Positions 4,137 through 49,962 of a stretch of DNA of 49,962 nucleotides are shown here, piece by piece. The notes beneath the pieces were generated by a model. It made no database searches and was not told the DNA's origin. It saw nothing but the letters and a program-made list of their open reading frames with translations. The translations under genes and the position numbers were made by a program. The stretch comes from Acidobacteriota bacterium. GTDB taxonomy: Bacteria > Acidobacteriota > UBA4820 > DSQY01. Position 1 is the first letter of the stretch, and each line of letters opens with the position of its first letter. The stretch spans positions 1 to 49,962 of the forward strand of contig JAKAIJ010000001.1 in NCBI GenBank assembly GCA_021814355.1, written 5' to 3'.

Positions 4137-4233
4137 CCCTCCCGCACCCCGACGGTTTGTCGTCTCCGTCCGGGCGCCTTCGCCGTTGGTTCCGCCGGGG
4201 GCCGGCCGCCGCGGAAGCGGTCCGGTCGTCCGT

Positions 4234-16111: not shown

Positions 16112-17356
16112 TCATCCGCCCGCCACCCCGCGTCTGGTTCTCAGACCCGTTGCGGCGGGCCGCAGCGGGACAGACCCGGCTCTCCGGACCGGCGGCAGGT
16201 ACGAGGCGGCCTGCGAAAGGGCCAGCCCGAAGATGAACCAGGTCACCTTCCGGTAGTCCCAGCTCGTGGTGACCCCCGTGACCATCCACGCCGTCAGCAC
16301 GGCGAACCACAGGAACCGGTCGCGCGACGGCAGCCGCCAGACGAGCCTCAGAACCCGGAAGAGGATGGCAAGGAAGAAGAGCATCCCGATCATCCCCGTC
16401 CCCACCAGCACGTTCAAATAGGTGCTGTGCGCGTCCTTCATCCAGCCGGATTTTTCGTACAGGGCGAGATAGAAGGCGCCCACTCCCACCCCCGCCACCG
16501 GGTAGTCGAGAAAGGCGTACCAGCCGATCTGGTAAATCGTGCGGCGGTCGGACCAGGTCCCGTATTGAATCTCGTGGCCCGTCGTGCGGACGCGCTGGAG
16601 CGTGGACGACGGGACGAACCGGGGGGCCAGGTACACGGACGGCACCAGCATGGCAAGAAGGGCGAGCGTGGCACCGACCTTGGTCCGAAAATACACGGCC
16701 ATACCCACCGAGAAGACGGCCGCACCCGCGAGCAGGGCGAGGATGCCCGTCCTCGACCCCGTGAGGAGGATGGCCAGGAACGCCGCCGGGCAGAAGAGCC
16801 AGCACAGCCACCGGCCGGACTTCCACCGGAAGGTGGAAACCATGGCCAGATAAGCTGCGAACAAAATGCCGATCGCAAGGATCGCCGCGAGGTCGTTTTC
16901 GTTCATCCCCGCGCCGCGATAGCGGGATTGCGCGCTGGTCGCCAGGGCATTCCTGCCCCCCCAGGCCGCCCAAAAGGTGCTCACGATGGGCACCCAGCAG
17001 CCCGCTACGTAAGCCTTCATCAACTTGAACTGTTCTGCTTGGGTCGGAGCGAACTCCCACGTGAGCCAGCCCAGGCCGGCCACGCGGATGTAGGTGAGGG
17101 TTCGTTCCCAGCTGTAGTCCGCATCCAAGGACCAGGCCACCGTAGCCCCGCACCAGCACACGTAGGCCGCCATCAGGACGTGCGCTCCGTCAATCCTCTT
17201 GAAGTTTCCCTGGGAGAGGACGACCAGAAAGCCGAAGAACAGCAGCGAATAGCCCACGATCCGGGAAATTGTGCCCACGCCGGGAATGGCGAGCGCCTCC
17301 TCCCACGGAATCGTGAACACCAGAAGCCACAGCAGCAGGAAGGTGAGCTTGCGCAT
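16112..17356 (-). CDS. O-antigen polymerase/ligase family membrane protein (Wzy_C-like), copy 1.
   Basis: 414 aa and polytopic. It has LTGSRTG, and a periplasmic loop followed by AHSTYLNVLVGTGMIG, which is typical of Wzy_C/WaaL-type proteins. Confidence 0.7.
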   Translation of the reverse strand: MRKLTFLLLWLLVFTIPWEEALAIPGVGTISRIVGYSLLFFGFLVVLSQGNFKRIDGAHVLMAAYVCWCGATVAWSLDADYSWERTLTYIRVAGLGWLTWEFAPTQAEQFKLMKAYVAGCWVPIVSTFWAAWGGRNALATSAQSRYRGAGMNENDLAAILAIGILFAAYLAMVSTFRWKSGRWLCWLFCPAAFLAILLTGSRTGILALLAGAAVFSVGMAVYFRTKVGATLALLAMLVPSVYLAPRFVPSSTLQRVRTTGHEIQYGTWSDRRTIYQIGWYAFLDYPVAGVGVGAFYLALYEKSGWMKDAHSTYLNVLVGTGMIGMLFFLAILFRVLRLVWRLPSRDRFLWFAVLTAWMVTGVTTSWDYRKVTWFIFGLALSQAASYLPPVRRAGSVPLRPAATGLRTRRGVAGG

Positions 17357-26675: not shown

Positions 26676-27668
26676 TCAGACATGGTAGCGCTCGGGATCG
26701 TAGAGGGCGAGGTTCTTCTCGATCCAGCGGGCGGTGCGCAGGAGGCCCTCCTCCAGCGCCGTGGCAGCCTCCCATCCCAGGAGGGCCTTCGCCTTGGCGG
26801 GGTCGGAGAGGAGCACCATCACCTCGCTCTTGTCGGGGCGCAGGCGCTCTTTCTCCTGGACCGCCTCCGCCCGGACGCCGAGGGCGCGGCAGGCGGCCTC
26901 GAAGAGCTCCCCCACGGAGACCGTGCGGCCCGTGCCCAGCTGGACCACCTCGCCCTCCGCGCCGGGGGCCTCGGCGGCCCTCACGAACCCCTCCACCGTG
27001 TCGGCCACGAAGGTCAGGTCGCGCCGGGGGTCCAGGCGGCCGAGCTTCACCTCCGCGCGGCCCGCGAGGAGCTGGACGAGCAGGGTGGGGAGCACCGCGC
27101 GGGTGGACTGGCGCGGCCCGTACGTGTTGAACGGGCGAAGGGTCACGACGGGGAGGCCGAAGGAGAGGTGGTAGGCCTCGCAGAGCTTGTCCGCGGCGAT
27201 CTTCGACGCGCTGTAGGGCGACTGGCCCTGCAGCGGGTGTGTCTCGCGGATGGGCAGGCTTTCGGGCGTGCCGTAGACCTCGCTGGTGGACGTGTGCACC
27301 ATCCGGCGGCAGCCGGCCCGCCGGACCGCCTCCAGCACGTTCAGCGTGCCCTTGACGTTGGTGTCCACGAAGGACTCGGGGGCCGCGTAGCTGTAGGGGA
27401 TGGCGATGAGCGCGGCCAGGTGGAAGACCGTCTCCACGCCGCGGCAGGCCTCCTCCACGAACCGCGCGTCGCGGATGTCGCCCAGGCGGACGTCGAGGCT
27501 CCTGTGCACCGCGGGCTCCGCGCCGTCGAGCCATCCCCAGGAGCCGTTGGAGTTGTACAGGCAGAAGGCCCGCACGTCCGCGCCGAGCGCCACCAGCCGC
27601 TCCGTCAGGTGGCTCCCGATGAACCCGTCCGCCCCCGTCACGAGGACCTTGCGTCCTGCCCAGCTCAC
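26676..27668 (-). CDS. legB: NDP-hexosamine 4,6-dehydratase (extended SDR), LegB-like.
   Basis: Start at GTG 27668 (GTGA overlap with the ptmE-like stop). Motifs VLVTGADGFIGSHL, STSEVYG and SPYSASKIAADK. It lies directly downstream of the PtmE-like gene. Confidence 0.7.
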   Translation of the reverse strand: MSWAGRKVLVTGADGFIGSHLTERLVALGADVRAFCLYNSNGSWGWLDGAEPAVHRSLDVRLGDIRDARFVEEACRGVETVFHLAALIAIPYSYAAPESFVDTNVKGTLNVLEAVRRAGCRRMVHTSTSEVYGTPESLPIRETHPLQGQSPYSASKIAADKLCEAYHLSFGLPVVTLRPFNTYGPRQSTRAVLPTLLVQLLAGRAEVKLGRLDPRRDLTFVADTVEGFVRAAEAPGAEGEVVQLGTGRTVSVGELFEAACRALGVRAEAVQEKERLRPDKSEVMVLLSDPAKAKALLGWEAATALEEGLLRTARWIEKNLALYDPERYHV

Positions 27669-28705
27669 GGCTTGTCCCCCTCTCCGCGGGCGCGCTTCAG
27701 CTCGTGGTGGTGGCCCACATCTATCCAGTCCTCCTCGACCCGGATGGCGCCGACGCGCTCGCCCTTCTCCAGACACTCCTCCACGAGGGCCGGCAGGGGG
27801 AAGTGCGTCTCCTTCGGAACGCGCTCCAGCAGGACGGGGTCCAGAACGTAAATGCCGGTGTTCACGTGCCACATCTCCGCTGGCTTCTCCCTCAGGCCAA
27901 GGATCCGTCCGTCGTTCACCTCCACCACCCCGTACGGGACCGTGTGGACGTATTCGTGGACGGCCACGGTGGCCCGGTAGCCGCCCTCCTCGTGAAACGC
28001 GAGCATCCGGCCTGCGTCGAACTGCGTCAACAGGTCCCCGTTCAGGACCAGGAAGGGGTGCGAGGGGCGCTCGGGGAGGAGCGACAGCGCCCCTCCCGTC
28101 CCTAGCGGCTTGTCCTCCCGCAGATAGCGGATCTCGCACCCGAGGGTTCTGCCGTCTCCGAAGTGGCCCTCGATCGCCTCGGCCATGTAGTTCACCGAGA
28201 TGAAGATCCTGCGGATCCCGAAGCCCACGAGGTGCAGGATGATCCGCTCCAGGATGGGGCGCCCCGCGATGCGGAGCATGGGTTTCGGCACGGTGTCGGT
28301 AAGGGGGCGGAGGCGCTCTCCCCGGCCGCCCGCCATGATCACGGCCCAGTTGGGGCGCTGGGCCGCGCCGAGTATGTCGTGGAGGGTGTGGAGCCCCACC
28401 AGGCGTTGCTGCTCGTCCACGATGGGGATCTGGCTGATGCCCCGGGCTTGCATCAAATCCAACACCTCGGCGCGCCCGGCCCGCTGCGTCACGCAGGTGA
28501 AGTCCCGCTGCATGTGGGGACCCAGGCGGTCCTCCAGCCCGGCCCCTCGGAGGAGCGCCCGGCGCACGTCGCCGTCGGTGAGGATCCCCGTGAGCCGGCG
28601 CTCCTCGTTGACCACCAGGACGATCTCCAGCCCCGACTTGTCCAGGGAGGCCAAGCCGTCCCGCAGGGTCTGGTCCTGCCGTAGCAAACACGTTTGATAG
28701 CGCAT
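27665..28705 (-). CDS. ptmE: CBS-pair plus nucleotidyltransferase fusion, PtmE-like (hexosamine-1-phosphate guanylyltransferase type).
   Basis: The N-terminal CBS pair contains LTGILTDGDVRR and LVGLHTLHDIL. It is followed by AVIMAGGRGERLRPLTDTVPKPML, the sugar-1-P NTP-transferase signature. Confidence 0.75.
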   Translation of the reverse strand: MRYQTCLLRQDQTLRDGLASLDKSGLEIVLVVNEERRLTGILTDGDVRRALLRGAGLEDRLGPHMQRDFTCVTQRAGRAEVLDLMQARGISQIPIVDEQQRLVGLHTLHDILGAAQRPNWAVIMAGGRGERLRPLTDTVPKPMLRIAGRPILERIILHLVGFGIRRIFISVNYMAEAIEGHFGDGRTLGCEIRYLREDKPLGTGGALSLLPERPSHPFLVLNGDLLTQFDAGRMLAFHEEGGYRATVAVHEYVHTVPYGVVEVNDGRILGLREKPAEMWHVNTGIYVLDPVLLERVPKETHFPLPALVEECLEKGERVGAIRVEEDWIDVGHHHELKRARGEGDKP

Positions 28706-36702: not shown

Positions 36703-37502
36703 CACGCGGTCCAACCCCCGTCCACCACCAAATTGTGGCCCGTGACATACGCGGAGAGGTCGCTGGCCAAAAACAGCGCCGCGCCCTTGAAGTCCTCCTC
36801 CGTCGCCATGCGGCGCAACGGCGTCCGGGATTCGTAGCGCTCCCGAAACGCCTCCGGCTGCCCCCGCCAGACTCCCCCGGGCGTAAGGCTGTTCACGCGG
36901 ATCTCCGGTGCCAGCACCGTGGACAGGTGGCGCGCGAGCTGAATCACCCCGCCCTTGCTGGCCCCGTAGCCCGCGGGGTTGGCCATGGCGGTGCCTTCGT
37001 ACAGGCCCAAGTCGGGCCCGACCACGCCGTAGATGGAGGAGACGAGGAGGACGGAACCGTGTCCGCCGGCTCGGAGCGCGGGCGCGGCCTCCTGGACCAT
37101 CACGAAGGCCGCGGTCAGGTTCACCCGCAGAGCCCCCTCCCACGCGGAAACCGACTGCTTCTCGAACGGCTCGGCCCATCCCGCCATCTTCGTCGTGCCG
37201 ACGAAAGCGGCGCAGTGGACGAGGACGTCCAGCCTCCCGAACGACCGGGTCACCCCCCGGACGGCGCCGCGCGCGTCCGCTTCGTTTCCGAGGTCCGCCG
37301 CGACGCACGCCGGCCTCGTCCCGCCGACTCCCTCGAGGGCCTCGGCCTGCCGCTCGCAGGCCTCGAGGGACAGGTCGCACAGGACGACCCGCGCACCGGC
37401 TTCCAGCAGCGCCGCCGCGATCGCGGAGCCGATATGCCCCGCGCCGCCCGTCACCAGCGCGACACGTCCACCCAGGTCCATGAGCTCCCCGACCGTCTTC
37501 AT
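36699..37502 (-). CDS. Classical short-chain dehydrogenase/reductase (PtmA-like position in the Leg locus).
   Basis: Start at ATG 37502 (ATGA overlap). Motifs VALVTGGAGHIGSAIA (TGxxxGxG) and YGASKGGV (YxxxK). Confidence 0.7.
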   Translation of the reverse strand: MKTVGELMDLGGRVALVTGGAGHIGSAIAAALLEAGARVVLCDLSLEACERQAEALEGVGGTRPACVAADLGNEADARGAVRGVTRSFGRLDVLVHCAAFVGTTKMAGWAEPFEKQSVSAWEGALRVNLTAAFVMVQEAAPALRAGGHGSVLLVSSIYGVVGPDLGLYEGTAMANPAGYGASKGGVIQLARHLSTVLAPEIRVNSLTPGGVWRGQPEAFRERYESRTPLRRMATEEDFKGAALFLASDLSAYVTGHNLVVDGGWTAW

Positions 37503-38233
37503 GGCGCCTCCAGCCACGGAAACTTGACGAGGCCGTGCCGGACGAGCAGGTCGGCCCGCTCGAACTCGTCGAGGTCGTCAATGTGGATGGCCCGGGCCTC
37601 GGGAACCTCCAGGAGGCGCAGGCTGCCCCCCATCCAGGAGTCCGACGCGGCCAGGAGGTAGTCCCGCCGCCACAGGTAAAGGGTGGCGTTGATGCGGAAC
37701 ACCTCGGGCAGGTCCTGGCGCCGCGCGTACTTCGCCGCGCCCGGCATCAGGGGCGCCAGGTACCCCCCGCTCTCGACGACGCAATGCCAATAGGGGTTGA
37801 ACTCGGGGCGCGATACCCCCACGACGCCGTCCGCGCGGGGGTCCTCCTCCAGGAGGGCCACGGCCCGCGCGACGTCCGAAGGGAGGCGGCCGGGGCTGGT
37901 GGGATCCATCAGGAGGAGGGCGGCGTAGGGGTGGCCGCTTCGCGCCTCCGCGGCCCTCAGTGCGTGCTGGAGCACGGGAAGCATCGGCGTCCGGTCCTGG
38001 GCGAGCTCCGGCGGCCTCAGGAACGGGACCTCACCCCCGTGGGCCCGGGCGACGGCGGCGATCTCCTCGGAGTCCGTGCTCACCACGGTCGCCGCGATTT
38101 CGGGGCACAGCTTCGCGCACCGGATGGAGTGGGCGATCAGGGGAAGCCCCGCGAGAGGCCGGATGTTCTTGCCGGGCAGTCCCTTCGATCCGCCGCGCGC
38201 CGGAATGACGCACAACAGGGGCTTGACGCTCAC
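37499..38233 (-). CDS. legF: CMP-nonulosonic acid synthetase (acylneuraminate cytidylyltransferase family, NeuA/LegF).
   Basis: Start at GTG 38233 (GTGA overlap). The signature of CMP-NeuAc synthetase-type enzymes is present: LCVIPARGGSKGLPGKNI. Confidence 0.8.
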   Translation of the reverse strand: MSVKPLLCVIPARGGSKGLPGKNIRPLAGLPLIAHSIRCAKLCPEIAATVVSTDSEEIAAVARAHGGEVPFLRPPELAQDRTPMLPVLQHALRAAEARSGHPYAALLLMDPTSPGRLPSDVARAVALLEEDPRADGVVGVSRPEFNPYWHCVVESGGYLAPLMPGAAKYARRQDLPEVFRINATLYLWRRDYLLAASDSWMGGSLRLLEVPEARAIHIDDLDEFERADLLVRHGLVKFPWLEAP

Positions 38234-39207
38234 GGGAGGACCTCCTCGGGCATACCGGTCCGGGCGCTCTTCTTCCATGCCTCGCAAACGGACAAGTCGC
38301 GCATCCCCTCCTCGAACGAGGCCAGCCGGCCCGGGCTACCCCCGCCCACGACTTCGAGAAAGGCCCGCATCTGCTCCAGGTACATGTCCTGCGCGGGCGC
38401 GGGAAGAACGTCTTCCCTGCCCCCCGCGCGTTTCACGAGCACGCGGTTCCCCACGAAGTCGCCCACGACTTCTCCGCGATCCCCCGCGGCGCGGATGAAC
38501 CGGACGGGGGACCGGCTGAGGTAGTCCAGGGCGAGGGAGACCTGCGGCCCGTCCGTGACCTGCCACGCCGCCTCCGCCATCTCCTCCGTCTGGATGCCGA
38601 GCCGTCCCAGGTTCGCGGCGGTTCCATGCACGCGCCGGGGAACGCCGAAGAGACGGACCGCAAGGTCCACGTCGTGGATGAGGTCCAGGATGACCCCGCC
38701 CTCGCCTTCGCGGGCGGCGTAGCTCCGGCGGTAATCCCGGTCCGGGCGCCAGCCGGGCAGGTAGGAGCGGCACTCTCCGCGGACCGAGTGCACCTCTCCC
38801 GCCTCCGGCAGGCGCTCCTCCAGGCGGCGAAGCGTCGGGCTGAAGCGGAGGCAGAGCGCGACGAAGAATCCGACCCCGCGCGCATCGAGGGCGGGCCGGA
38901 GGCGCGCGGCCTCCGCGCAGGTCGCCGCGAGGGGTTTCTCGCAGAGCACCGGCAGGCCCAACTCCACGGCCGCGAGGGCGTCCTGGGGGTGCCGGCCCGT
39001 GTCGGTGGCGACGACCGATCCCCGGGCGCCCATCCGCCGGGCCTCTTCCAGGTTCCGGGCGCAGGAGAGCCCCCGAGCCTCCAGTTCTTTCCTCCGGTCG
39101 GGACGGATGGGAACGGCCAGCGCGCCCGCACCCAGTGTTTCGAGCGCCTGGAGGTGCCGCATCCCGATGGAGCCGGTTCCGACGACCGCGATCAAGGGGC
39201 GGGTCAT
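38230..39207 (-). CDS. Gfo/Idh/MocA-family oxidoreductase (PtmF-like position in the Leg locus).
   Basis: Start at ATG 39207. Motifs IAVVGTGSIGMRHL (Rossmann) and CEKPLA (EKP motif). Confidence 0.65.
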   Translation of the reverse strand: MTRPLIAVVGTGSIGMRHLQALETLGAGALAVPIRPDRRKELEARGLSCARNLEEARRMGARGSVVATDTGRHPQDALAAVELGLPVLCEKPLAATCAEAARLRPALDARGVGFFVALCLRFSPTLRRLEERLPEAGEVHSVRGECRSYLPGWRPDRDYRRSYAAREGEGGVILDLIHDVDLAVRLFGVPRRVHGTAANLGRLGIQTEEMAEAAWQVTDGPQVSLALDYLSRSPVRFIRAAGDRGEVVGDFVGNRVLVKRAGGREDVLPAPAQDMYLEQMRAFLEVVGGGSPGRLASFEEGMRDLSVCEAWKKSARTGMPEEVLP

Positions 39208-39357
39208 CCGCGGACGCCCAGAACGAGAGTGCCCGCCATGGTCAGCCGATCTCTCCCGCAAAGAGCTCCCGGCGGCGGTTCCCGGGACGCTCCCGCGCGG
39301 GCCCCGCGCCTTCGGGAGCGAAGCTGCCGTCCGCGGAGGCGCGGAATGGCGCGGCGG

Positions 39358-40032
39358 TCACTTCTCGCCCCCGCCGCCCCGCGTGTGCCCGGCCCCCTTG
39401 AAGGCGTCGTAGCTCCGCTCCCCGGTCCGCAGGGCTTCGGGCAGCGGCGCCTCCTCGTCCAGATCGAGGCAGCGCACGCCGCCGCCTTCCAGTTTGTACC
39501 GCAGACCGCTCTCCGGGCAGGCCGCGCTCCCGGAGGCGTCGAAGGCGAGCCGGTGGCCGTGGCGGCTCATCCAGCCCGCCCGGCGCGCGGGCACACCCAC
39601 GATGAGCGCGTAGTCCGGGACGTCTCTTGCCACGACGGCGCCCGCGGCCACGAAGGCGTACCGTCCCACCGTCACGCCGCACACGATGGTGGCGTTGGCC
39701 CCGATGGTGCAGCCACGTTTCAGCAGAGTTTTCTCGTAGAGGCTGTGGCGGTTGACCTGGGAGCGGGGGTTGGTGACGTTGGTGAGCACGCACGAGGGGC
39801 CCAGGAAGACGTCGTCCTCCACGACGGCGCCGGTGTAGAGGGAGACGTTGTTCTGCACCTTCACGTTGTCGCCGATCACCACGTCGTTGGCCACGTTGCA
39901 GTTCTGGCCGAAGACGCAGTGCCTTCCGATCTTGGCGCCCCTCTGGATGTGGCAGAAGTGCCAGATCCTGGTCCCTTCGCCGATCTCGCAGGGCTCGTCC
40001 ACGAAGGCCGACTCGTGCTTGAAGTAGCTCAT
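39358..40032 (-). CDS. wbpD: LbH N-acetyltransferase, WbpD/WlbB-like (3-amino sugar N-acetyltransferase).
   Basis: Start at ATG 40032 (ATGA overlap). [24 protein letters not shown] and the long hexapeptide run are typical of WbpD/WlbB. It lies directly downstream of wbpB-like and wbpA-like genes. Confidence 0.7.
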
Positions 40033-41006
40033 GGCGCGCTCCTCCCCGGGGAATCCGGCGTCCCGGAACCGCGGGGCCCGGCCTCGGTGACGGGGACGGT
40101 GCGAATCTGGTGGACCAGCTCGATGGAAGGCCGGGCGTCCGCGAGGCCGAACCCCGCCCCCGCCAGGGTGCGCTCGTAGACCCGCGTGTGGAGGTCGGCG
40201 AACCCCTCGGTGAACTCGACCTCCTCCCCGTCCACGGTGATGGAGCGGTGGGTGGTCTGTCCTCCGGGCACGGGCGCGAAGGGTAGGTCCGACGCGTCCA
40301 AGGAGAGGAACCACTCGACCTCGGCGCGGTCGAGCTCGAGCCGCCCGCCCGCGCGCAGCGGCGTCCGCAGGTGCACCCGGCTTGACCGGACGGGGCCAAA
40401 GAGCCACAGGAGCAGGTCGAAGAAGTGGATGCCGATGTTCGTCACCAGCCCGCCCGAGCGGTCCTCGGACCCCTTCCAGGAGACGTGGTACCACCCTCCG
40501 CGGCTGGTGATGTAGGTGAGCCCCACGCGGTGGCCCCCGCGCGCGGCCGCGAGCCGCTCCCTCAGGACCACGAGGGCGGGGTGGACGCGGAGCTGGAGCA
40601 CCGTGTTCACGCGGCGGCCGCTCTCCGCCTCGATCTCCTCGAGGGCGTCGAGGTTCCAGGGGTTGATGACCAGCGGCTTCTCGCAGAGCGCGTGGGCGCC
40701 GTTGCGCAGGGCCAGCCGGACGTGGGCGTCGTGCAGGTAGTTGGGCGAGCAGATGCTGACGTGGTGGACGCGCCCCTCCTCGGGGCCGCGGTGGAGCTTG
40801 TCGAGGTAGCGGTCGAACCGCTCGATCTCGCGGAAGTACTTCACGTCGAAGGCGTACCGGTCGAGGATCCCCACCGCGTCGTGGGGGTCCGCGGCGGCCA
40901 CCAGCCGGTTGCCCGTGTCGCGGATGGCCTGGAGGTGGCGGGGGGCGATGTAGCCCGCGACGCCGACCACGGCGAAGTTCTTCGGGGGATTCCCGGGCGC
41001 GCTCAT
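40029..41006 (-). CDS. wbpB: Gfo/Idh/MocA oxidoreductase, WbpB/WlbA-like (UDP-GlcNAcA 3-dehydrogenase type).
   Basis: ATG 41006 (ATGA overlap). Motifs [20 protein letters not shown] and [20 protein letters not shown], which I recall as characteristic of the WbpB family. Confidence 0.7.
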
Positions 41007-42313
41007 GCGGTCACGATGTTCCGGCCGCCGCCGGGGAAGACGTTGCGGGTGTCCACGACCAGCGGGAGGCGCCTCGCCACCAGGGCGTAGTCCACGGCGG
41101 CGTGGTCGGTCACGACCACCGCCGCGTCGAAGCCCGCCAGGCTCCGGGCCGTGAGCGGCACGCTGGCCAGATCGAAGGCGTACTCCCGAGTGCGCGGAAG
41201 GCGCGGGACGTGGGGGTCGTGGTAGGCCGCGCGGGCCCCGGCCCGGTCGAGGAGGCTCAGGATCTTGAGGGCGGGCGACTCGCGCATGTCGTCAATGTCG
41301 CGCTTGTATGCCACGCCCAGGACGAGCACCCGGGCCCCGCGGAGCGGCTTGCCGAGGTCGGCCAGCCCCCCGCGCAGCCGCTCCACCACGTGGTAGGGCA
41401 TGGAGGTGTTGATCTCCCCGGCCAGCTCGATGAACCGCGTGGAGAAATCGAACTCGCGGGCCTTCCACGTGAGGTAGAAGGGGTCAATGGGGATGCAGTG
41501 CCCACCGAGCCCCGGCCCCGGGTAGAAGGGCATGAAGCCGAAGGGCTTGGTGGCCGCCGCCCGGATCACCTCGAAGACGTCCAGCCCCATGCGCCCGCAC
41601 AGGAGCTTCACCTCGTTGGCCATGGCGATGTTCACGGCCCGGAAGGTGTTCTCGTAGATCTTCACCATCTCGGCGGTGCGCGTGGAGGAGACCGGGACCA
41701 CCCGCTGGAACGCGGCGCCGTACAGGTCCACCGCGGCCTTCAGCGCGGCGGGGGTGTCGGCGCCCACCACCTTGGGGATGCGGGCCGTGGTGAACTTCTC
41801 GTTGCCGGGGTCCTCCCGCTCGGGGCTGAAGGCGAGGTGGAAGTCCCGGTTGGCCCGGAGCCCCTTGGCCGCCTCGAGGATGGGCCGCACCACTTCGTCC
41901 GTCGTGCCGGGCCAGGTGGTGCTTTCGAGCACCACGAGCATCCCCTTGTGGAGGTAGGGGGCGGTGGCGCGGGCCGTCTCTTCGATGTAGGACATGTCCG
42001 GCTCGCGGTGGTGGGTGAGGGGCGTCGGGACGCAGTAGATGAGCGCGTCCACTCCCCCCACCTTGCGGAAGTCGGTGGTGGCGGAGAGCCGCCCCGCCCG
42101 GACCTGCGCGGCGATGCGCGCCGAGGGGACGGTCTTGAGGTAGGTCCGGCCCTTCGCGAGGGCCGCCGGTTTAGCCGGGTCCACGTCGAATCCGACGACC
42201 CGGAAGCCCGCCTCGCAGAACGTGAGGCTCAGCGGCAGCCCCACGTAGCCCAGCCCCACGACTCCCACCGTCGGATGCCCCCTGCGAACCATCGGCGCCC
42301 CTCCCCGCATCAC
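41003..42313 (-). CDS. wbpA: UDP-N-acetyl-hexosamine 6-dehydrogenase (UDP-glucose/GDP-mannose dehydrogenase family, WbpA/WecC-like).
   Basis: Motifs [13 protein letters not shown] and [11 protein letters not shown] (catalytic Cys), with a C-terminal UDP-binding domain. The start is GTG 42313 (GTGA overlap) or ATG 42310. Confidence 0.8.
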
Positions 42314-43536
42314 GGCCGCGCGCCCGGCGCCGGCGCGCCGGGCTCACGGTGTACGGCCTTCGACCCGCCCCGCGACTCCCGCGCCAGCCGGGCGAGGGTC
42401 CGGGCCTGTCTCCCCCACCGGCGCAGGTAGAGGAGCGGCACCGGGAGGTGGGCGTGGCCGGGGTCCTTCTCGCGCAGGTGCGCGGCCCCCGGGAAGAGGA
42501 TCTGCCACGCGATCCTGCCGGCGCTCCAGGGGCTGCGGGCGTGGCGGATCTGCGCCAGCGCCTCCTGCCCCACCCTGCTTTCCGGGCTTAGAGGGGGCCT
42601 TTTCTCTCCCCCCATTTCGCGGAGCCGGCTCAGGACCTCGCCGGGAACCGCCGCGCCGAAGACCTCCGCCGCCCCGAGGAGTCCCTCGCACGCCGCGCCC
42701 GCGAAGCCGCTCTCGCGGGCCAGTTGGCACACCCTCTCCCAGCTCAGGCGGCCGCCGAACCGCTCCAGGAGCTGGGCGGCGTCCGCGAAGGCGAGGAGCT
42801 TGAAGGTCTCCCCCGTCCGAAAACCCGACGCGTGGGCCATGAGGTAGACCAGGTTGGCCTCCGGGGCGAGCACCCGCGCGGGGCGCCCCAGGAGGGTCGT
42901 GGGCTCGAGCCCCTGAAGGAGGCAGCGGGTCCGGGAGACCCTGCGGTCGCGCGCCGCGAAGAGGAGCTCGCCGTGGATCTCGACCAGGCAGCCGGTGGCC
43001 GGGGCCTTCAGGGCGTCGAGGTGGTTGTCCAGGTCCCAGGGGTCCGCCGACGCCCCCGCGCCCTGGGATTCGTACCCCGCCGAGAGAAGCCTTCGCTGCG
43101 CCTCCTCCGCCTTGGCCAGGTCCTCGAAGTAGAGGTCCGTGTCGGCCCGCGGGCGGAGGTAGGGGCTCGGGTAGCAGCGGTAGGCCAGGTCCACCCCCTT
43201 GAGCAGGACCGGCGGCACGCCCACGGGCGCCAGCAGGTCGAGCACCCGCTCCAGCTCCCGCTCCTGGACCTCGGCCACCGCCCGGTAGCGGGCGAGCCGG
43301 CGGTCGAGATCGGCCCAGCGCGACAAAGAGCCACCCGTCTCGCGCCCGGCCCGTTGGAGGCGCCGCAGAACGAGGGGCAGGACGCCCTCCCAGCGGAGCT
43401 GCTCGGCCGTCTCGCGCCACTCCTCCTCGCCGAGATCCAGCAGTCGGGACGGCTCGCGCACGAGGAGCGCAAGGGACCCCGCCGCGGGCGCGGGCGCTCC
43501 GCTACGCCTCTCGAGAAGCCCGGAGACCGGGCTCAC
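42310..43536 (-). CDS. Uncharacterised nucleotidyltransferase-like protein (PF14907/NTP_transf_5-like), paralog B.
   Basis: Start at GTG 43536 (GTGA overlap). PPVLLKGVDLAYRCYPSPYLRPRADTDLYF matches the family pattern as I recall it: LKG, then YP...R, then DxDL. It is colinear with the upstream paralog along its whole length. Confidence 0.6.
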   Translation of the reverse strand: MSPVSGLLERRSGAPAPAAGSLALLVREPSRLLDLGEEEWRETAEQLRWEGVLPLVLRRLQRAGRETGGSLSRWADLDRRLARYRAVAEVQERELERVLDLLAPVGVPPVLLKGVDLAYRCYPSPYLRPRADTDLYFEDLAKAEEAQRRLLSAGYESQGAGASADPWDLDNHLDALKAPATGCLVEIHGELLFAARDRRVSRTRCLLQGLEPTTLLGRPARVLAPEANLVYLMAHASGFRTGETFKLLAFADAAQLLERFGGRLSWERVCQLARESGFAGAACEGLLGAAEVFGAAVPGEVLSRLREMGGEKRPPLSPESRVGQEALAQIRHARSPWSAGRIAWQILFPGAAHLREKDPGHAHLPVPLLYLRRWGRQARTLARLARESRGGSKAVHREPGAPAPGARP

Positions 43537-44786
43537 GGCTCCTCTCCGGTCACGCGGGCCGCCAGCCCTGCGCGCGCTTCGTCCGCCGGGGAAAATGGAG
43601 CTGACCGCCCCTTCTCAGGGCGCCGGAAGAAGAACCGGACGAGCTGACGGGCCTGGTCGGCCCACCGGTAGGGGTAGAGGAGGGCCACCGGCCAGTGCCG
43701 CCGCTCCCCGTACTTCTGCCGCAGGTGGGCCGGCGGCGGAGCGAGCAGTTGCAGCCCCATCCTTAGGGCGACCAGCGGATTTCTCGCGTTGCCGAGCTTT
43801 TGAAGCGCGATGTGGGCGCTTCGCGTCTCCAGGGTGTACGGGAGGTCGTCCCCCGCGGCCTGTTCAAGCCGTTCGAGGAGCGGCTCCGGCACAGGAAGGC
43901 CGAGGTACTCGCGCGCGAGGGCGAGGCCGCGCGCCACGGGCACGGCGCACCCGCACCCCGCCGCCAGCGCCCCGAGCCGCTCCCAGCCGAAGGCCGGCCC
44001 CGTCTTCTCCGCCACCGCGGCCACGTCCGCAAGGGCGACGAGCCGCGGGGGCTCGGCCGAGTGCTGCTCGAACATGTGGGCCAGCAGGAACACCACGTTC
44101 GCCTCCGGCGCGAGTCCGAAACACCGCCCCGGCAGCCCCGGGATCTCCTCGAGCCCCTCCAGCAGCGGGCGCATGGCCCTCCAGCGCCGGTCCCGCGGGG
44201 CGAAGATCAGGCTCCCGTGGATCTCGACGAGCGCCCCGTTCTGCGGGTCCCGGAGGGTGGGCAGGTGGTACTGGGCGTCCCAGGGGCTCCCGCTGGACAC
44301 TGGATAGGGACTGGTGAAGCCGTGGCCCGCCAGCACCCGCTGGACCTCTTCCGCCTCGGCCAGGTCCGGAAAGAGGAGGTCCATGTCGGACATGGGGCGC
44401 AGGTGGGGCGCCTCGTAGTAGCAATGGGCCAGATGGAGGCCCTTGAGAAGGACCGGCGCGTGCCCTCCGGCGGCCAGGAGCCCCAGGAGGCGCTCGAAGG
44501 CGAGCATCGTGGCGGCGAACGCCGCCTTGTGCCGGTCCGCCTCCCGGGAGAGCGCCCGGCGCTGGGGCTCGGTGAGCGTCCCCCCCGCTTCGAGCCGCCG
44601 CCGCGCCACGACCGCGCCCACGCCCTCCCACCGCAGCCGGTCGAGCAGCGCGTCCAGCTCCGCGGGCGCCGCCGGCAAGGCGGCCCGCGGGTCTGTCACG
44701 AGGCGGGCGAGGCGGCGCCAGGCGGAGGCGTCAATGCCGCCGGCAGCGCCGGGCGGGATGCGGAACTTCTGGGCGGCGCGCGGCAT
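43533..44786 (-). CDS. Uncharacterised nucleotidyltransferase-like protein (PF14907/NTP_transf_5-like), paralog A.
   Basis: ATG 44786. Motifs: APVLLKGLHLAHCYYEAPHLRPMSDMDLLF. It shares RWEGV, LVEIHG, LAPEAN and a C-terminal LLY.YRW region with paralog B. Confidence 0.6.
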   Translation of the reverse strand: MPRAAQKFRIPPGAAGGIDASAWRRLARLVTDPRAALPAAPAELDALLDRLRWEGVGAVVARRRLEAGGTLTEPQRRALSREADRHKAAFAATMLAFERLLGLLAAGGHAPVLLKGLHLAHCYYEAPHLRPMSDMDLLFPDLAEAEEVQRVLAGHGFTSPYPVSSGSPWDAQYHLPTLRDPQNGALVEIHGSLIFAPRDRRWRAMRPLLEGLEEIPGLPGRCFGLAPEANVVFLLAHMFEQHSAEPPRLVALADVAAVAEKTGPAFGWERLGALAAGCGCAVPVARGLALAREYLGLPVPEPLLERLEQAAGDDLPYTLETRSAHIALQKLGNARNPLVALRMGLQLLAPPPAHLRQKYGERRHWPVALLYPYRWADQARQLVRFFFRRPEKGRSAPFSPADEARAGLAARVTGEEP

Positions 44787-44787
44787 C

Positions 44788-45068
44788 TTAGGGCCTATCC
44801 GTAAATAGGGCGCGGCCGCGCGCTCTGCGCCGGGCGAGCGGGGCGAGGCGGCCGACCGAAGTAAGGCTGCGCGAAGCGCCTTTCGAGGGAGGCCAACAAA
44901 GCCATGCGACGCCCGCCGCGAGCGCCCGGAGGGACGGGGCCATCCGCGCGCCTGGCCGCGTCAGCTCGCTCATCCGATGGTCTCCGTCATCGCCCTTCGC
45001 TTGCTTCCTTGCCATTCATCGCGGCTGGCCTCCGTCGCGACCATGCCTTATTTGCGGATAGGCCCTTA
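44788..45068. mobile_element. MITE-like non-autonomous element: 275-bp body (44791..45065) with 21-bp imperfect terminal inverted repeats, flanked by TTA on both sides.
   Basis: The left end is GGGCCTATCCGTAAATAGGGC (44791..44811). The reverse complement of the right end (45045..45065) is GGGCCTATCCGCAAATAAGGC, so 19 of 21 positions match. TTA sits at 44788..44790 and at 45066..45068. There is no credible internal ORF. The first 49 nt recur at 49807..49855. Confidence 0.6.
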
Positions 45069-45890
45069 CAGAGGCTGGTAGGTGCGGCGGAGCACGAGCC
45101 GGAAGGGCGGAGGGCCGCCGGGTCCGCGGACGAACAGGCGGTCCACGATCCAGACGTCCCTGCCGAGCTTCAAGGTCCGCTCGTCGCCGGGGCCGTCCGG
45201 AAAGGGCTGGAACGCCCCGGCGAACCAGGAGGACCAGCGATAGCCGTCCGGGCGGGTGCAGAGCAGGTGGAGCGACGACTCGCCCGCGCACTCCCCCGTT
45301 CTCAGTCCCACGAAATAGACCTGTCCCACGGCGCCGTCCGGGGGCAGCTCGCCCTTGCGGACGTAGAACTTGGGTTTGCTCCATTCGTCCCAGCGCCAGC
45401 TGGCCGGGAAGAGCCGCAGAACCCAGAGCGGGGTTCGGTCTGGCGCATCTCCCGAGGGGGTGCGCCCGTCGAGCCCCACGAGCGTGTAGTCGAAGGCGGG
45501 ACCGGCGGCGCCGTTCTCGAGGGCCCAGGCCTCCGCCCTGCGCGACTCCGAGGCGAAGTCCTCCGACCAGAGGGCGTAGGCGGCGAGCAGGGGCCAGGCC
45601 GCGTCGCGCTTCTCGAGAACGAGCCGCCGGCCGCAGGCCCCCAGGCCGTACCGCACCCGGCGGGCGGTGGAGGCGAGCCCCAGGCGGGTGGTCCGCCCGA
45701 ACGCCACGCGGTACTGGCGAAGCGCTTCGGCCACGTCCCCGCGCGCGGCGGCCTCCTCGGCCTCCGCCAGCGACGCGAAGCCCCCCTGGGCGAAGAGCGC
45801 CGCGGGGAACTCCGTCGGGGCCACGCGGAGATGCGCCCCCACGGCCGCCACCGCCAGAAGAAGGGCGAGCGCGCTTCCGAGACGGCTCAT
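45066..45890 (-). CDS. Hypothetical secreted protein.
   Basis: Start at ATG 45890 (ATGA overlap with the upstream Wzy_C-like gene). The N-terminal signal-peptide-like segment is MSRLGSALALLLAVAAVGAH. I recognise no family motif. Its stop TAA (45068..45066) coincides with the TTA flank of the MITE-like element. Confidence 0.55.
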   Translation of the reverse strand: MSRLGSALALLLAVAAVGAHLRVAPTEFPAALFAQGGFASLAEAEEAAARGDVAEALRQYRVAFGRTTRLGLASTARRVRYGLGACGRRLVLEKRDAAWPLLAAYALWSEDFASESRRAEAWALENGAAGPAFDYTLVGLDGRTPSGDAPDRTPLWVLRLFPASWRWDEWSKPKFYVRKGELPPDGAVGQVYFVGLRTGECAGESSLHLLCTRPDGYRWSSWFAGAFQPFPDGPGDERTLKLGRDVWIVDRLFVRGPGGPPPFRLVLRRTYQPL

Positions 45891-47356
45891 CCGGCCGCCT
45901 CCCGTTCCCCGGTCACTTCGTCCCTCCGGGGGCCTCCGTGCCGGCGCCTCTGCTTGTGCGCGCTGCCGCCCGCGTCGAGCTGCACCTCCAGGGCGACCAT
46001 CCCCACGATGCAGACCAGGAGCAGGGCGCCCACGATCGGGAAGACGTGGGCCGTGAAGTCCACCGCCGCGTGCAGGGTCTCCCCCACGAGGACCGGGGCC
46101 AACCAGAAGGCGGCGTGGGCCTCGAGCGAGAGCCTCGCGGCCAAGTAGACCACCCCGACCCCCGTCGCCAGCGCCGCCAAGGCGGGCAGGATTCCCCCTT
46201 CGAAGAAGGCCTGGAGGTACTCGTTCTCCAGGTGGGTGTTGCGCATCTGCGGGAAGAAAGGAAGGTCCGCGGATTCGGCGGCGAATTGCGGCTCGAAGCT
46301 GCCCAGGCCGTGCCCCAGGGCGAACCCGTGGGCGGGCACGTTGGCGCCGAGCCGGAGGCGGCCCCGGTCCGACACCAGCCCCGACCACGCCGCCAGGGCC
46401 CCGCCGCAAAGCAACGCCGCGAGGAAGACCCATGCGAGCGCGAGCCTCCAGGGGCGGGAGGGGTGGAGTGCGCCGTTGGCGAGCCACGCGAGCGGATAGA
46501 AGAGCAGCGCCAGCAGCGAGCCCTGCGAGTGGCTGGCGAAGAGCACGGCCACGTGGAGGGCGAAGAGGCCCAGGCAGAGCAGGCGCAGCCCGAAGCGGTC
46601 GCTACGCCGTGCGGTGGCGCAGGAGAGGCGCCAGATCAGGTAGTAGAGCAGCGGAACCGCGAGGTTGACGAAGGCGGCGCCGTGGTTGGGATTCACGAAG
46701 GGACCGAAGGCTCCCGCGGCCCGCGCGCTGGGGCGCACCCAGAGGATCGTCGTCCGGGCCTTGTCCTGGAACTCCGCCAGCGCCGCCAGCGCCACGAAGA
46801 GGCCGAGCCCGCCGACCAGCCAGGCGAGCCGGCGGAGCGCATCGCGCCCCTCTTCGGCGAGCCGCTCGAGCAGGAGGATGAGGCAGAGGCCGGCGGCGAG
46901 GGCCAGCAGCGCGCGGAAGGTGGCCGGCGGCGTGAAGCTGGGGGGGATCCACGCGGGCGCCTTCGGGGTGCGCGGTGTCCAGTTCTCGGGCGGAAGGGGT
47001 TTTTCGGCCTCCGCGGAGAAGGGGTCCCGCCGGTAGGCGTCCGTATGGAGCAGGGCCTCGGCCCGGGCCGCCCGCTCGTACATCGTGTACCGCTCGGCGC
47101 CGCAGGCTTTCCAGAGCGACGCCGGCAAGGGGACCAGCTGGGCGAGCCCGACCGCCAGGAGCACGACGACGAGCAGCGCCGGAAGCCAGAGCCGCCTGGG
47201 AACGCGCCAGAACTCCCTGGAGCCCCATCCCACCACGGACGCGCCCGCGAGAAGGATCACTTCGCAGGCGGCGATGGACCAGTTCTCCATGCAGCCGAAG
47301 GCGAGCGAGGAGAAGACGAAAAAGAGGGCCAGGGGCCAGAAGGCCGACAGGGTCAG
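45887..47356 (-). CDS. O-antigen ligase/polymerase family membrane protein (Wzy_C-like), copy 2; start codon uncertain.
   Basis: The protein is polytopic. LAFGCMENWSIAACEVILL is the typical N-terminal helix pair, and FASHSQGSLLAL and NTHLENEYLQAFFEGGI form a Wzy_C-like loop. No ATG or GTG lies between the rmlB stop and the first conserved helix. The 5' end is provisionally set at CTG 47356. Confidence 0.6.
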   Translation of the reverse strand: MTLSAFWPLALFFVFSSLAFGCMENWSIAACEVILLAGASVVGWGSREFWRVPRRLWLPALLVVVLLAVGLAQLVPLPASLWKACGAERYTMYERAARAEALLHTDAYRRDPFSAEAEKPLPPENWTPRTPKAPAWIPPSFTPPATFRALLALAAGLCLILLLERLAEEGRDALRRLAWLVGGLGLFVALAALAEFQDKARTTILWVRPSARAAGAFGPFVNPNHGAAFVNLAVPLLYYLIWRLSCATARRSDRFGLRLLCLGLFALHVAVLFASHSQGSLLALLFYPLAWLANGALHPSRPWRLALAWVFLAALLCGGALAAWSGLVSDRGRLRLGANVPAHGFALGHGLGSFEPQFAAESADLPFFPQMRNTHLENEYLQAFFEGGILPALAALATGVGVVYLAARLSLEAHAAFWLAPVLVGETLHAAVDFTAHVFPIVGALLLVCIVGMVALEVQLDAGGSAHKQRRRHGGPRRDEVTGEREAAG

Positions 47357-49325: not shown

Positions 49326-49333
49326 GCGGTCCC

Positions 49334-49792: not shown

Positions 49793-49802
49793 CGGCTCGT
49801 CC

Positions 49803-49855
49803 CTTAGGGCCTATCCGTAAATAGGGCGCGGCCGCGCGCTCTGCGCCGGGCGAGC
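49803..49855. repeat. Second copy of the left end of the MITE-like element (49 nt identical, plus the CTTA flank); the rest runs off the window.
   Basis: 49807..49855 is identical base for base to 44791..44839, and both are preceded by CTTA. Similarity decays after position 50. The window ends before a right-hand inverted repeat could appear. Confidence 0.6.
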
Positions 49856-49962
49856 AGGGTAGGGGCTCGGGCCGCCAAGGGCTCCCGGCGCGTTGCCCCC
49901 CGGGCCGGTGCAGATTCACGAAGGCCCGAGGCAGGCGTGCGGGACGGCACGCAGACGAGGGC

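What the first reader, a model, noticed from the sequence alone, without database searches (positions are those of the whole stretch)
42310..44786. Tandem divergent PF14907-like nucleotidyltransferase paralogs at the head of the operon
Two about 410-aa proteins are joined by a GTGA overlap. They are colinear along their whole length, sharing RWEGV, PVLLKG...YP...LRP..D.DL.F, LVEIHG, LAPEAN and a C-terminal LLY.YRW region. They are nevertheless strongly diverged, which suggests an old duplication and possibly a heteromer.

Both keep the DxD of the predicted nucleotidyltransferase fold. As far as I know this family has no established function. I know it mainly from peptide natural-product contexts, not from O-antigen or capsule loci.

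The pair is translationally coupled to wbpA and sits directly downstream of the MITE-like element. That position implies a role in the glycan pathway, for example nucleotidylation or phospho-transfer to a sugar, lipid carrier or protein partner.
Basis: partly seen in the sequence, partly recalled or inferred. Interest (0 to 1): 0.6.

Follow-up and report, generated by a model that had tools for sequence, protein, structure and literature searches.

The report
Paired PF14907 enzymes in glycan operon
Two neighbouring, 43%-identical genes in a surface-sugar gene cluster of an uncultured Acidobacteriota bacterium encode intact members of a very large enzyme family (PF14907) whose chemistry is still unknown, and relatives show that the family sits habitually in sugar-polymer loci, which no paper I could search describes.

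Summary
NTa (43533..44786, 417 aa) and NTb (42310..43536, 408 aa) lie on the minus strand and overlap by GTGA. Both are strong PF14907 hits, 43% identical over 367 residues. Both keep every residue that is invariant in a 40-sequence family alignment.

They are each other's closest relatives, so this is a lineage-specific duplication that has diverged far. Five of the 150 best relatives are natural double-PF14907 fusions, which makes a heterodimer plausible but unproven.

The interpretation needs three corrections.
- The pair is not an ancestral operon head. In a sister family the membrane protein, the secreted protein and a single PF14907 gene are coupled (gaps -4 to +15 nt), so the MITE split that junction here.
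- The link is to glycan assembly and export loci, not to wbpA. None of 80 wbpA loci from other phyla holds a PF14907 gene.
- One probable family member has genetic data: PsmN, needed to add hexose to a phosphoserine.

This pair lacks the kinase and PqqD partners that accompany PsmN-type enzymes. The likely role is a Mg-dependent transfer from a nucleotide-activated donor onto the glycan or its carrier. That mechanism is inferred, not shown. The scan has flagged PF14907 on other DNA, mostly in kinase/PqqD trios.

The parts
43533..44786 (-). NTa: PF14907 nucleotidyltransferase-fold protein, 417 aa, no signal peptide or membrane segment seen by eye
   Evidence: ORF. PF14907 at E = 3.3e-33, residues 42-296. 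AlphaFold2 model has pLDDT 82 and pTM 0.79. The best PDB fold matches are all nucleotidyltransferase-fold proteins, though weak.
42310..43536 (-). NTb: paralogue of NTa, 408 aa
   Evidence: ORF. PF14907 at E = 1.1e-38. 43% identical to NTa. Sister of NTa on the tree with 98/94 support.
43533..43536 (-). GTGA overlap: the NTb GTG start overlaps the NTa TGA stop
   Evidence: Coordinates; sequence.
44379..44444 (-). NTa active-site stretch, K115-G116 to D134-x-D136 (LLKG...LRPMSDMDLL)
   Evidence: K115, G116, R130, D134 and D136 are invariant in 40 family members. In the model, D134-D136 lie on strand 134-138 and KG starts helix 115-122. This is the usual Pol-beta-type layout.
44217..44225 (-). 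NTa E188-I-H190 (LVEIHG), the likely third metal ligand strand
   Evidence: E188 and H190 are conserved in at least 90% of family members. They lie on strand 186-190 of the model.
43135..43200 (-). NTb active-site stretch, K113-G114 to D132-x-D134 (LLKG...LRPRADTDLY)
   Evidence: Pairwise alignment and sequence. All the invariant residues are present.
42310..42313 (-). Junction of NTb with the wbpA-like UDP-sugar 6-dehydrogenase gene (41003..42313)
44788..45068. MITE-like repeat that separates the secreted-protein gene from NTa
   Evidence: At least 60 BLASTN matches in this genome. In family f2 the same junction is 0 to 15 nt.
45066..45890 (-). Sec: 274-aa secreted or anchored protein with no Pfam family; the conserved partner of the membrane protein upstream
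   Evidence: No Pfam or NCBIfam hit. It follows the WzyL gene in nearly all class genomes that have WzyL. It has a conserved Y-x-P-L C-terminus.
45887..47356 (-). WzyL: a roughly 489-aa multi-pass membrane protein with a Wzy_C-like GxGxGSF...ENEYLQ...ExG motif but no Pfam hit
   Evidence: No Wzy_C hit at E <= 1. hhalign against the window's true Wzy_C protein aligns only that motif, at probability 1.2%. Found in 23 of 30 class genomes.

Best explanation
NTa and NTb are two cytoplasmic, catalytically intact enzymes of the PF14907 family (Pol-beta-type nucleotidyltransferase fold). They arose by a duplication specific to this lineage.

They occupy a position conserved at the level of the taxonomic order: directly after a Wzy_C-like membrane protein and its secreted partner, and before the wbpA/wbpB and nonulosonic-acid genes of a roughly 50-kb surface-glycan locus.

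Most likely they use the K-G...DxD...E metal site to transfer a group from a nucleotide-activated donor (an NDP-sugar or NTP). The acceptor would be a phosphate or hydroxyl of the lipid-linked glycan, or of a glycan-assembly partner, on the cytoplasmic face. The product would be a phosphodiester-type decoration, by analogy with PsmN. The two paralogues probably work as a heterodimer, or on two different sites or donors.

Shown: family membership, intact motifs, the duplication history, the conserved position, and the habitual glycan-locus context.

Inferred: cytoplasmic location, donor, acceptor, product and heterodimer.
For: Family and fold:
- PF14907 above the cut-off for both proteins.
- All invariant residues kept in both.
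- A confident model whose top fold matches are all nucleotidyltransferases, including ANT(2'')-Ia.

Duplication:
- NTa and NTb are sisters with 98/94 support and branch lengths 0.85 and 0.96.
- Of the 76 of 301 Acidobacteriota genomes with a strong match, G000 alone has two on one contig. Most of the 31 positive relatives have one copy.

Conserved position:
- G025-G028 have WzyL, Sec, PF14907, epimerase, wbpA, wbpB, GFO, cytidylyltransferase, SDR ... NeuC in that order.
- In those genomes the Sec-to-PF14907 gaps are -4 to +15 nt.
- A second WzyL-Sec-PF14907 block lies on contig C171 and in G014.
- G001 and G002 have PF14907-WzyL-Sec; in G004 PF14907 lies about 2 kb upstream of WzyL-Sec.

Glycan context elsewhere:
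- Same-family genomes have PF14907 followed by a BBP2_2 porin, Poly_export, a Wzz/BY-kinase and a GT2.
- The P0047 locus has NusG, PF14907, TPR, Wzm, Wzt and glycosyltransferases.
- 18 of 35 phylum loci have polysaccharide genes within 9 kb.
- Wzy_C is found in 7 of 192 immediate neighbours.

Chemistry by analogy: PsmN, whose D134A/D136A mutant is dead, is needed for one or two hexoses on a phosphoserine (PMC6993621).

Heterodimer: 5 of the top 150 representatives are full double-PF14907 fusions. Four of them keep G...DxD in both halves.
Against: - No biochemical activity is known for any PF14907 protein. LppN showed no detectable effect in a heterologous host (PMC13381572).
- That PsmN belongs to PF14907 was not tested here.
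- PsmN acts on a peptide whose phosphate is supplied by a dedicated kinase. No kinase or PqqD gene lies in this window.
- WzyL and PF14907 do not strictly co-occur. G006, G007 and G021 have WzyL but no PF14907. G016, G019 and G022 are the reverse.
- No general link to wbpA: 0 of 80 loci.
- The heterodimer rests only on fusions in other lineages. No complex prediction was possible with these tools.
- Fold matches to solved structures are weak (best E = 0.01).
Confidence: 0.5

Rival explanations
1. The pair works in trans with the HprK-like kinase, PqqD and radical-SAM genes on contig C31. It would decorate a phosphorylated peptide or protein, as PsmN does. On this reading the glycan locus only supplies sugar donors or co-regulation.
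For: - G000 has an HprK-like kinase, a PqqD and an rSAM/SPASM gene in a row with no PF14907 beside them.
- In 14 of 35 phylum loci, PF14907 lies within 9 kb of such genes, 5 of them together with polysaccharide genes.
- PqqD is found in 7 of 192 immediate neighbours.
- More distant members sit directly beside ScmC/HprK-like and PqqD genes inside glycan loci.
Against: - In the 30 class genomes, every kinase match lies on a different contig from the PF14907 matches.
- The kinase is present in four genomes at least 90% complete that lack PF14907: G007, G009, G017 and G021.
- In family f2 the PF14907 gene is coupled to Sec and to the sugar-nucleotide genes instead.
Confidence: 0.2
2. The pair is regulatory. 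It would nucleotidylate (AMPylate or UMPylate) a protein of the glycan assembly machinery, such as the Wzy_C-like protein, a BY-kinase or a co-polymerase, to tune output.
For: - The nucleotidyltransferase fold is used for protein nucleotidylation elsewhere (established knowledge: GlnE, GlnD, MNT antitoxins).
- PF14907 lies beside Wzz/BY-kinase genes in same-family genomes and in P0004.
- It associates with assembly and export genes, not with any one sugar pathway.
Against: There is no direct evidence. The only genetic datum for the family is a sugar addition. No BY-kinase gene was found in the window.
Confidence: 0.12
3. One or both copies are redundant or decaying duplicates without a specific role. 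Alternatively, they are small-molecule (ANT-like) resistance enzymes that happen to lie in the locus.
For: - Tandem duplicates are often transient.
- ANT(2'')-Ia is among the best fold matches.
- The neighbouring junction has been hit by a mobile element.
Against: - Both keep all invariant residues.
- Both have coding-type GC3 of 0.91 to 0.93.
- The branch lengths are symmetrical.
- The position is conserved across an order.
- The fold match to ANT is weak, and there is no sequence match to any solved structure.
Confidence: 0.05

Closest known systems
PsmN of the pseudomycoidin lasso-peptide cluster, Bacillus pseudomycoides (Zyubko et al. 2019, PMC6993621)
   Same: The paper describes PsmN as a member of a family of uncharacterized nucleotidyltransferases. 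Its DxD lies at residues 134/136, the same distance from the N-terminus as in NTa. Phyre2 matched it to ANT(2''), which is also among the top fold matches of the NTa model. It is the only relative with a genetic phenotype: one or two hexoses added to a phosphate.
   Different: PsmN sits with an HprK-type kinase, split B1/B2 proteins, a lasso cyclase and a precursor peptide. NTa/NTb have none of these nearby and sit in a glycan operon as a tandem pair. I could not obtain the PsmN sequence, so its Pfam membership and its identity to NTa were not measured.
LppN of linear polyphosphorylated peptide clusters (Popov et al. 2026, PMC13381572)
   Same: It is an NTP-transferase that accompanies an HprK kinase and an RRE in Bacillota. 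It is a relative of the PsmN type.
   Different: Its deletion changed nothing in the heterologous host, so it gives no function. Its context is again peptide tailoring, not glycan.
Pfam PF14907 (NTP_transf_5, 'Uncharacterised nucleotidyltransferase')
   Same: Both proteins match the full model well above the gathering score. They keep the residues that are invariant in 40 relatives.
   Different: The family has no assigned reaction. NCBIfam has no model that names these proteins.
Aminoglycoside 2''-nucleotidyltransferase ANT(2'')-Ia and other minimal Pol-beta-fold nucleotidyltransferases (PDB 5kqj, 5uvd, 4ok0, 2ewr)
   Same: The core fold and the placement of the metal-binding carboxylates are shared.
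   Different: There is only about 14% identity, TM-scores are 0.25 to 0.32 on the query, and E >= 0.01. NTa has extra helical domains of about 100 aa at the N-terminus and about 140 aa at the C-terminus. There is no sequence-level match to any PDB entry.
LicD / fukutin / Mnn4-type phospho-substituent transferases (nucleotidyltransferase fold; transfer P-choline, ribitol-P or Man-1-P from a nucleotide-activated donor to a glycan)
   Same: This is a 'works like' comparison only, from my own knowledge. These are DxD nucleotidyltransferase-fold enzymes encoded in glycan loci that make phosphodiester decorations.
   Different: There is no Pfam LicD hit. The comparison is an analogy and was not tested.

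Membership tests
PF14907 (NTP_transf_5) | Full-length match to the Pfam model above the gathering score (31.2 bits) | tested here: met
   NTa scores 115.8 bits over model positions 3-249. NTb scores 133.6 bits over positions 2-249.
PF14907 (NTP_transf_5) | Conserved K-G ... R ... D-x-D ... E-x-H ... H ... D residues | tested here: met
   K115, G116, R130, D134, D136 and D254 are invariant. E188, H190 and H237 are at least 90% conserved in 40 relatives. All are present in both NTa and NTb.
Pol-beta-type nucleotidyltransferase fold | Strand, G-containing turn, helix, then a strand carrying DxD, plus a later strand carrying the third acidic residue | tested here: met
   In the model (pLDDT 82), residues 112-113 read as strand (E), below the tool's 3-residue cut-off. 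Helix 115-122, strand 134-138 and strand 186-190 follow. The top PDB fold matches are all nucleotidyltransferases, but with weak statistics, E 0.01 to 0.1.
PsmN/LppN-type peptide tailoring set (HprK-like kinase + RRE/PqqD + PF14907) | Adjacent HprK-like kinase and PqqD/RRE genes | tested here: not met
   No such genes were found in the 50-kb window. The genome's only PqqD and HprK-rel-A-like matches are on contig C31. Every kinase match in the 30 class genomes lies on a different contig from the PF14907 matches.
PsmN/LppN-type peptide tailoring set | A precursor peptide with a C-terminal Ser that is phosphorylated and then decorated | not tested
   I did not search for small ORFs. A definitive answer needs mass spectrometry.
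Sugar-1-phosphate nucleotidylyltransferases (PF00483) and cytidylyltransferases (PF02348) | Match to those Pfam models | tested here: not met
   PF14907 is the only hit at E <= 0.01. Those families are represented by other genes of the window, at 27665..28705 and 37499..38287.
LicD family (PF04991) | Match to the LicD model | tested here: not met
   No hit at E <= 0.01.
Heteromeric PF14907 pair | Physical association of the two paralogues | not testable with these tools
   There is only indirect support. Five natural fusions of two complete PF14907 units occur among the 150 best representatives. The structure tool folds single chains only.

The most novel reading that the evidence does not exclude
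Kinase-less PF14907 enzymes encoded in glycan loci form an undescribed class of cytoplasmic glycan-tailoring enzyme. They would build a phosphodiester-linked sugar or nucleotide on the lipid-linked repeat unit or on the carrier phosphate. They would be functionally tied to a Wzy_C-like membrane protein and its periplasmic partner (a three-compartment WzyL-Sec-NT unit). The two-unit form, whether a tandem pair or a fusion, would be the active state.
Probability: 0.2. Interest if true: 0.65.

Novelty: new variant of a known kind. Interest (0 to 1): 0.4.

Why it matters
PF14907 is very large: 45,010 representative clusters at E <= 0.001. Yet it has no assigned reaction. The only experimental handle comes from a lasso-peptide cluster.

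The finding shows that one large branch of the family lives without the kinase and RRE partners, inside polysaccharide assembly loci, and in a position conserved across an order of Acidobacteriota. That gives a second, independent setting in which to work out the chemistry.

If the enzymes put phosphodiester-linked groups on surface glycans, this would bear on how the cell envelopes of abundant soil bacteria are annotated. It would also explain why peptide-type and glycan-type contexts of the family so often merge.

As it stands this is a well-documented context for an uncharacterised family, not a new mechanism.

Tried and rejected
- The word-index homologue search failed for these Arg/Ala/Gly-rich proteins. 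It returned 3 to 7 hits in all three runs. The exhaustive profile search was needed instead.
- The search for related loci with the NTa/NTb/P0003 alignment found nothing.
- There is no sequence match to any PDB chain for the NT profile or the WzyL profile.
- WzyL could not be confirmed as Wzy_C. There is no Pfam hit at E <= 1, and hhalign against the window's true Wzy_C gives probability 1.2%, aligning only the GxGxGxF...YL motif.
- The sigma-70 promoter scan of 42200..45300 found no promoter-like site, and its two terminator-like sites are no more than the shuffles give. There is no ops (GGCGGTAG) element in the spacer.
- I first estimated a spacer of about 280 to 400 nt between Sec and PF14907 in family f2, from partial tblastn hits. 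Exact ORF ends show 0 to 15 nt, so I rejected that estimate.
- The C171 spacer is not the window's MITE.
- PF27840 (ScmC) is not in the genome-search library.
- The RODEO paper, which I recall listing the lasso-associated Pfam families, is not held. 'PsmN = PF14907' therefore stays unverified.
Full report
**1. The observation**

Two minus-strand ORFs lie at 43533..44786 (NTa, 417 aa, ATG start) and 42310..43536 (NTb, 408 aa, GTG start). They overlap by GTGA.

Their codon-position GC is typical of real genes in this 70%-GC genome: GC3 is 0.91 and 0.93, GC2 is 0.53 and 0.54.

Both proteins match Pfam PF14907 (NTP_transf_5) end to end, at 115.8 and 133.6 bits against a cut-off of 31.2. They hit nothing else. 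NCBIfam has no model for them.

**2. Are both copies intact enzymes?**

An exhaustive profile search found 45,010 representative clusters at E <= 0.001, and 2,397 at E <= 1e-30.

In an alignment of the 40 best, six residues are invariant: K115, G116, R130, D134, D136 and D254 (NTa numbering). Conserved in at least 90% are Y124, L129, P131, E188, H190, P227, H237, W268, Y371 and W375. NTa and NTb keep all of them.

An AlphaFold2 model of NTa has pLDDT 82 and pTM 0.79. It shows three parts:
- an N-terminal helical domain, about residues 20-106;
- a core in which KG opens helix 115-122, D134-x-D136 lie on strand 134-138, and E188/H190 lie on strand 186-190;
- a C-terminal helical domain, about residues 249-387.

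This is the Pol-beta-type nucleotidyltransferase layout.

Foldseek against the PDB gives only weak matches (best E = 0.01). The top ones are all nucleotidyltransferase-fold proteins: 5uvd, ANT(2'')-Ia 5kqj, mimivirus poly(A) polymerase, JHP933 and TM1012. There is no sequence-level match to any solved structure.

I saw no signal peptide or membrane segment by eye, so I take both proteins to be cytoplasmic. That is an inference.

**3. History of the duplication**

The genome is a 2.56-Mb MAG, 91% complete. It has three PF14907 genes: the pair, and one at the end of contig C171.

On a maximum-likelihood tree, NTa and NTb are sisters with 98/94 support. Their branches are long and nearly equal, 0.85 and 0.96. 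The C171 copy falls in another subclade.

Among 41 relatives, 31 have the family, mostly as one copy. Among 301 Acidobacteriota genomes, 76 have a strong match (E <= 1e-40). Only this genome has two strong matches on one contig. One other genome, G183, has a second, weaker copy with one gene between the two.

The duplication is therefore lineage-specific and old enough to reach 43% identity. There is no sign that either copy is decaying.

Five of the 150 best representatives are natural fusions of two complete PF14907 units, 727 to 796 aa long. Four of them keep G...DxD in both halves. In P0025 the N-terminal half has lost the KG and the first Asp. This makes a two-unit working form plausible and supports the heteromer idea indirectly. 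It does not prove it.

**4. Surroundings**

Every gene assigned in the window is on the minus strand, and together they form one glycan locus. In transcription order it holds:
- rmlC, rmlD and rmlB
- WzyL (45887..47356)
- Sec (45066..45890)
- the 275-bp MITE
- NTa and NTb
- wbpA-like, wbpB-like and wbpD-like genes
- a GFO-type oxidoreductase, a cytidylyltransferase and an SDR
- NeuC-like, HisF/HisH-like, ACP/KASIII and PtmE-like genes
- further genes including a DegT aminotransferase, an MBOAT, a true Wzy_C (16112..17356), an asparagine-synthase-like gene and glycosyltransferases

WzyL has no Pfam hit at all at E <= 0.1. It shows only a Wzy_C-like motif. Sec has no family assignment.

**5. The position is conserved, and NTa is not an ancestral operon head**

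Contig C171 carries a paralogous block: glycosyltransferase, WzyL2 (52% identical), Sec2 (34%), a 400-bp spacer, then PF14907 (42% identical to NTa). G014 carries the same block. Its Sec2 is 92% identical to the C171 copy, so C171 may be mis-binned or recently transferred.

The four genomes of sister family f2 (G025 to G028) have WzyL, Sec, a single PF14907, an epimerase, wbpA, wbpB, GFO, a cytidylyltransferase, an SDR ... NeuC, in that order. In them the Sec stop and the PF14907 start are 0, +4, -4 and +15 nt apart.

PF14907 is therefore an internal, coupled member of a WzyL-Sec-PF14907 unit. In this window a MITE, with at least 60 matches in the genome, was inserted into that junction. This agrees with the earlier follow-up on the element.

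In the same-genus genomes G001 and G002, a distant PF14907 clade lies directly upstream of WzyL-Sec. In G004 it lies about 2 kb upstream.

WzyL-Sec is a fixed pair found in 23 of 30 class genomes. PF14907 is adjacent in only about ten of them, and presence of the two is not strictly linked:
- WzyL without PF14907: G006, G007, G021.
- PF14907 without WzyL: G016, G019, G022.

**6. Wider context of the family**

In most same-family genomes the single NTa-like gene (33 to 40% identical) lies between an unknown 715-aa secreted protein and a BBP2_2 porin, a Poly_export/SLBB protein, a Wzz/BY-kinase and a GT2-methyltransferase.

A metagenomic relative, P0047, follows a NusG paralogue and precedes TPR, Wzm, Wzt and glycosyltransferase genes.

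I sampled 35 Acidobacteriota loci from other families and searched 9 kb on each side:

| Genes found within 9 kb | Loci |
|---|---|
| Polysaccharide genes only | 13 |
| HprK-like kinase, PqqD or rSAM genes only | 9 |
| Both | 5 |
| Neither (single-sequence searches, so a lower bound) | 8 |

A Pfam tally of the 192 genes within three positions of the PF14907 gene gives the following counts:

| Pfam family | Neighbours |
|---|---|
| Wzy_C | 7 |
| PqqD | 7 |
| Glyco_transf_4 | 7 |
| Radical_SAM | 6 |
| Glycos_transf_2 | 6 |
| ABC_tran | 6 |
| Bac_transf | 5 |
| GNVR | 5 |

More distant members sit directly beside ScmC/HprK-like and PqqD genes inside glycan loci.

By contrast, none of 80 wbpA-homologue loci from many phyla (837 kb in all) contains a PF14907 gene. 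The family's link is to glycan assembly and export, and to the kinase/PqqD set. It is not to the UDP-2,3-diacetamido-uronic acid pathway.

The best wbpA match is a MAG labelled Acidobacteriota, at 77% identity.

**7. The kinase question**

The window has no kinase or PqqD gene. The genome has one HprK-like, PqqD and rSAM/SPASM row on contig C31, beside a 1,398-aa secreted protein, with no PF14907 gene on the 9.2-kb contig.

That kinase is found in 26 of 30 class genomes, and every match lies on a different contig from the PF14907 matches. It is present in four genomes at least 90% complete that lack PF14907: G007, G009, G017 and G021. In this class the two systems look independent.

**8. What is known**

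Full-text search finds PF14907 by accession in only one work, held as preprint and journal version. It names it as an unexplained neighbour in a phosphonate cluster.

PsmN of the pseudomycoidin cluster is described as belonging to a family of uncharacterized nucleotidyltransferases. It is needed for one or two hexoses on the phosphoserine made by PsmK, and a D134A/D136A mutant is inactive. The authors could not decide between a new kind of glycosyltransferase and an enzyme that feeds a host transferase (PMC6993621; review PMC9266682).

LppN of the linear polyphosphorylated peptides had no detectable effect (PMC13381572).

I could not obtain PsmN's sequence, so its Pfam membership is inferred. 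The inference rests on the wording of the papers, the position of its DxD, and the shared ANT(2'') fold match.

The scan has flagged PF14907 often on other DNA (606 notes). In the notes shown it appears as kinase + PqqD + PF14907 sets, some of them inside glycan operons.

**9. Most likely mechanism**

Shown:
- Two intact Pol-beta-fold enzymes.
- They are co-transcribed by arrangement with glycan genes.
- Their position is conserved at order level.
- They belong to a family that habitually lives in polysaccharide loci.

Inferred:
- They use the metal site to transfer a group from an NDP-sugar or NTP to a phosphate or hydroxyl of the lipid-linked glycan or a partner, giving a phosphodiester-type decoration.
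- The pair acts as a heterodimer, or on two sites.

I put about 0.5 on this overall picture. I put much less, about 0.2 to 0.3, on any particular donor or acceptor.

The rivals are trans-action with the C31 kinase set on a peptide or protein (0.2), regulatory protein nucleotidylation (0.12), and redundancy or resistance (0.05).

**10. Verdict**

This is a kinase-less, glycan-locus, tandem variant of a known but uncharacterised family. Interest is moderate: the context is documented more fully than before, but no new mechanism is demonstrated.

Noticed in passing
G000 contig C31:5446-7691 (not in the window): An HprK-like P-loop protein (289 aa), a PqqD (90 aa) and an rSAM/SPASM enzyme (364 aa) lie in a row. 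On one side is a 1,398-aa secreted protein, which from its sequence looks FN3-rich (not tested). On the other is an S24-like/methyltransferase gene cut by the contig end. There is no PF14907 gene on the contig. The kinase is found in 26 of 30 class genomes.
   Followed up: partly
window 45066-47356; loci L055-L080: WzyL-Sec is a fixed gene pair found in 23 of 30 genomes of the class. WzyL has no Pfam hit despite a Wzy_C-like GxGxGSF...ENEYLQ motif. Sec has an N-terminal anchor or signal and a conserved extreme C-terminus, L(I/V)R-x-Y-x-P-L.
   Followed up: partly
G000 contig C171:1-4400: This contig holds a second copy of the WzyL-Sec-PF14907 block. Its Sec2 is 92% identical to that of G014 (a different genus), against 34% to the window's Sec. 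The contig may be mis-binned or recently transferred.
   Followed up: partly
G000 contig C171:2941-3342: The 400-bp spacer before the third PF14907 gene holds two blocks of what look, by eye, like heptamer tandem repeats (CAACCTG/TAACCTT-like). Similar repeats occur on contig C6. It is not the window's MITE.
   Followed up: partly
L037, L038, L040, L041 (G010, G011, G015, G018): A block is conserved in same-family genomes: an unknown 715-aa secreted protein with no Pfam hit, PF14907, a BBP2_2 porin, Poly_export/SLBB, a Wzz/BY-kinase and a GT2-methyltransferase fusion.
   Followed up: partly
P0025, P0042, P0048, P0105, P0137: These are natural proteins of 727 to 796 aa made of two complete PF14907 units. 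In P0025 the N-terminal unit has lost the KG and the first Asp of the DxD.
   Followed up: partly
P0005 (606 aa); G000 C31:7718-9157: In P0005, PF14907 is fused to a C-terminal region that, read by eye, resembles an S24/S26 peptidase. The gene beside the C31 kinase carries a similar-looking region fused to a methyltransferase-like part (also by eye; neither was run against Pfam). This recalls the SpI-like leader peptidase of the LPP clusters.
   Followed up: no
window versus L033, L034, L046-L049: The GC content of syntenic loci varies very widely within one order. It is 73% over the last 14 kb of the window (36001-49962), about 60% in same-genus genomes, 55% in G025 and 34 to 35% in G026 to G028.
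   Followed up: no
window 2165-5295: E1 dehydrogenase alpha and beta subunits (E1_dh; Transket_pyr plus Transketolase_C) and an aldo-keto reductase are embedded at the distal end of the glycan locus.
   Followed up: no
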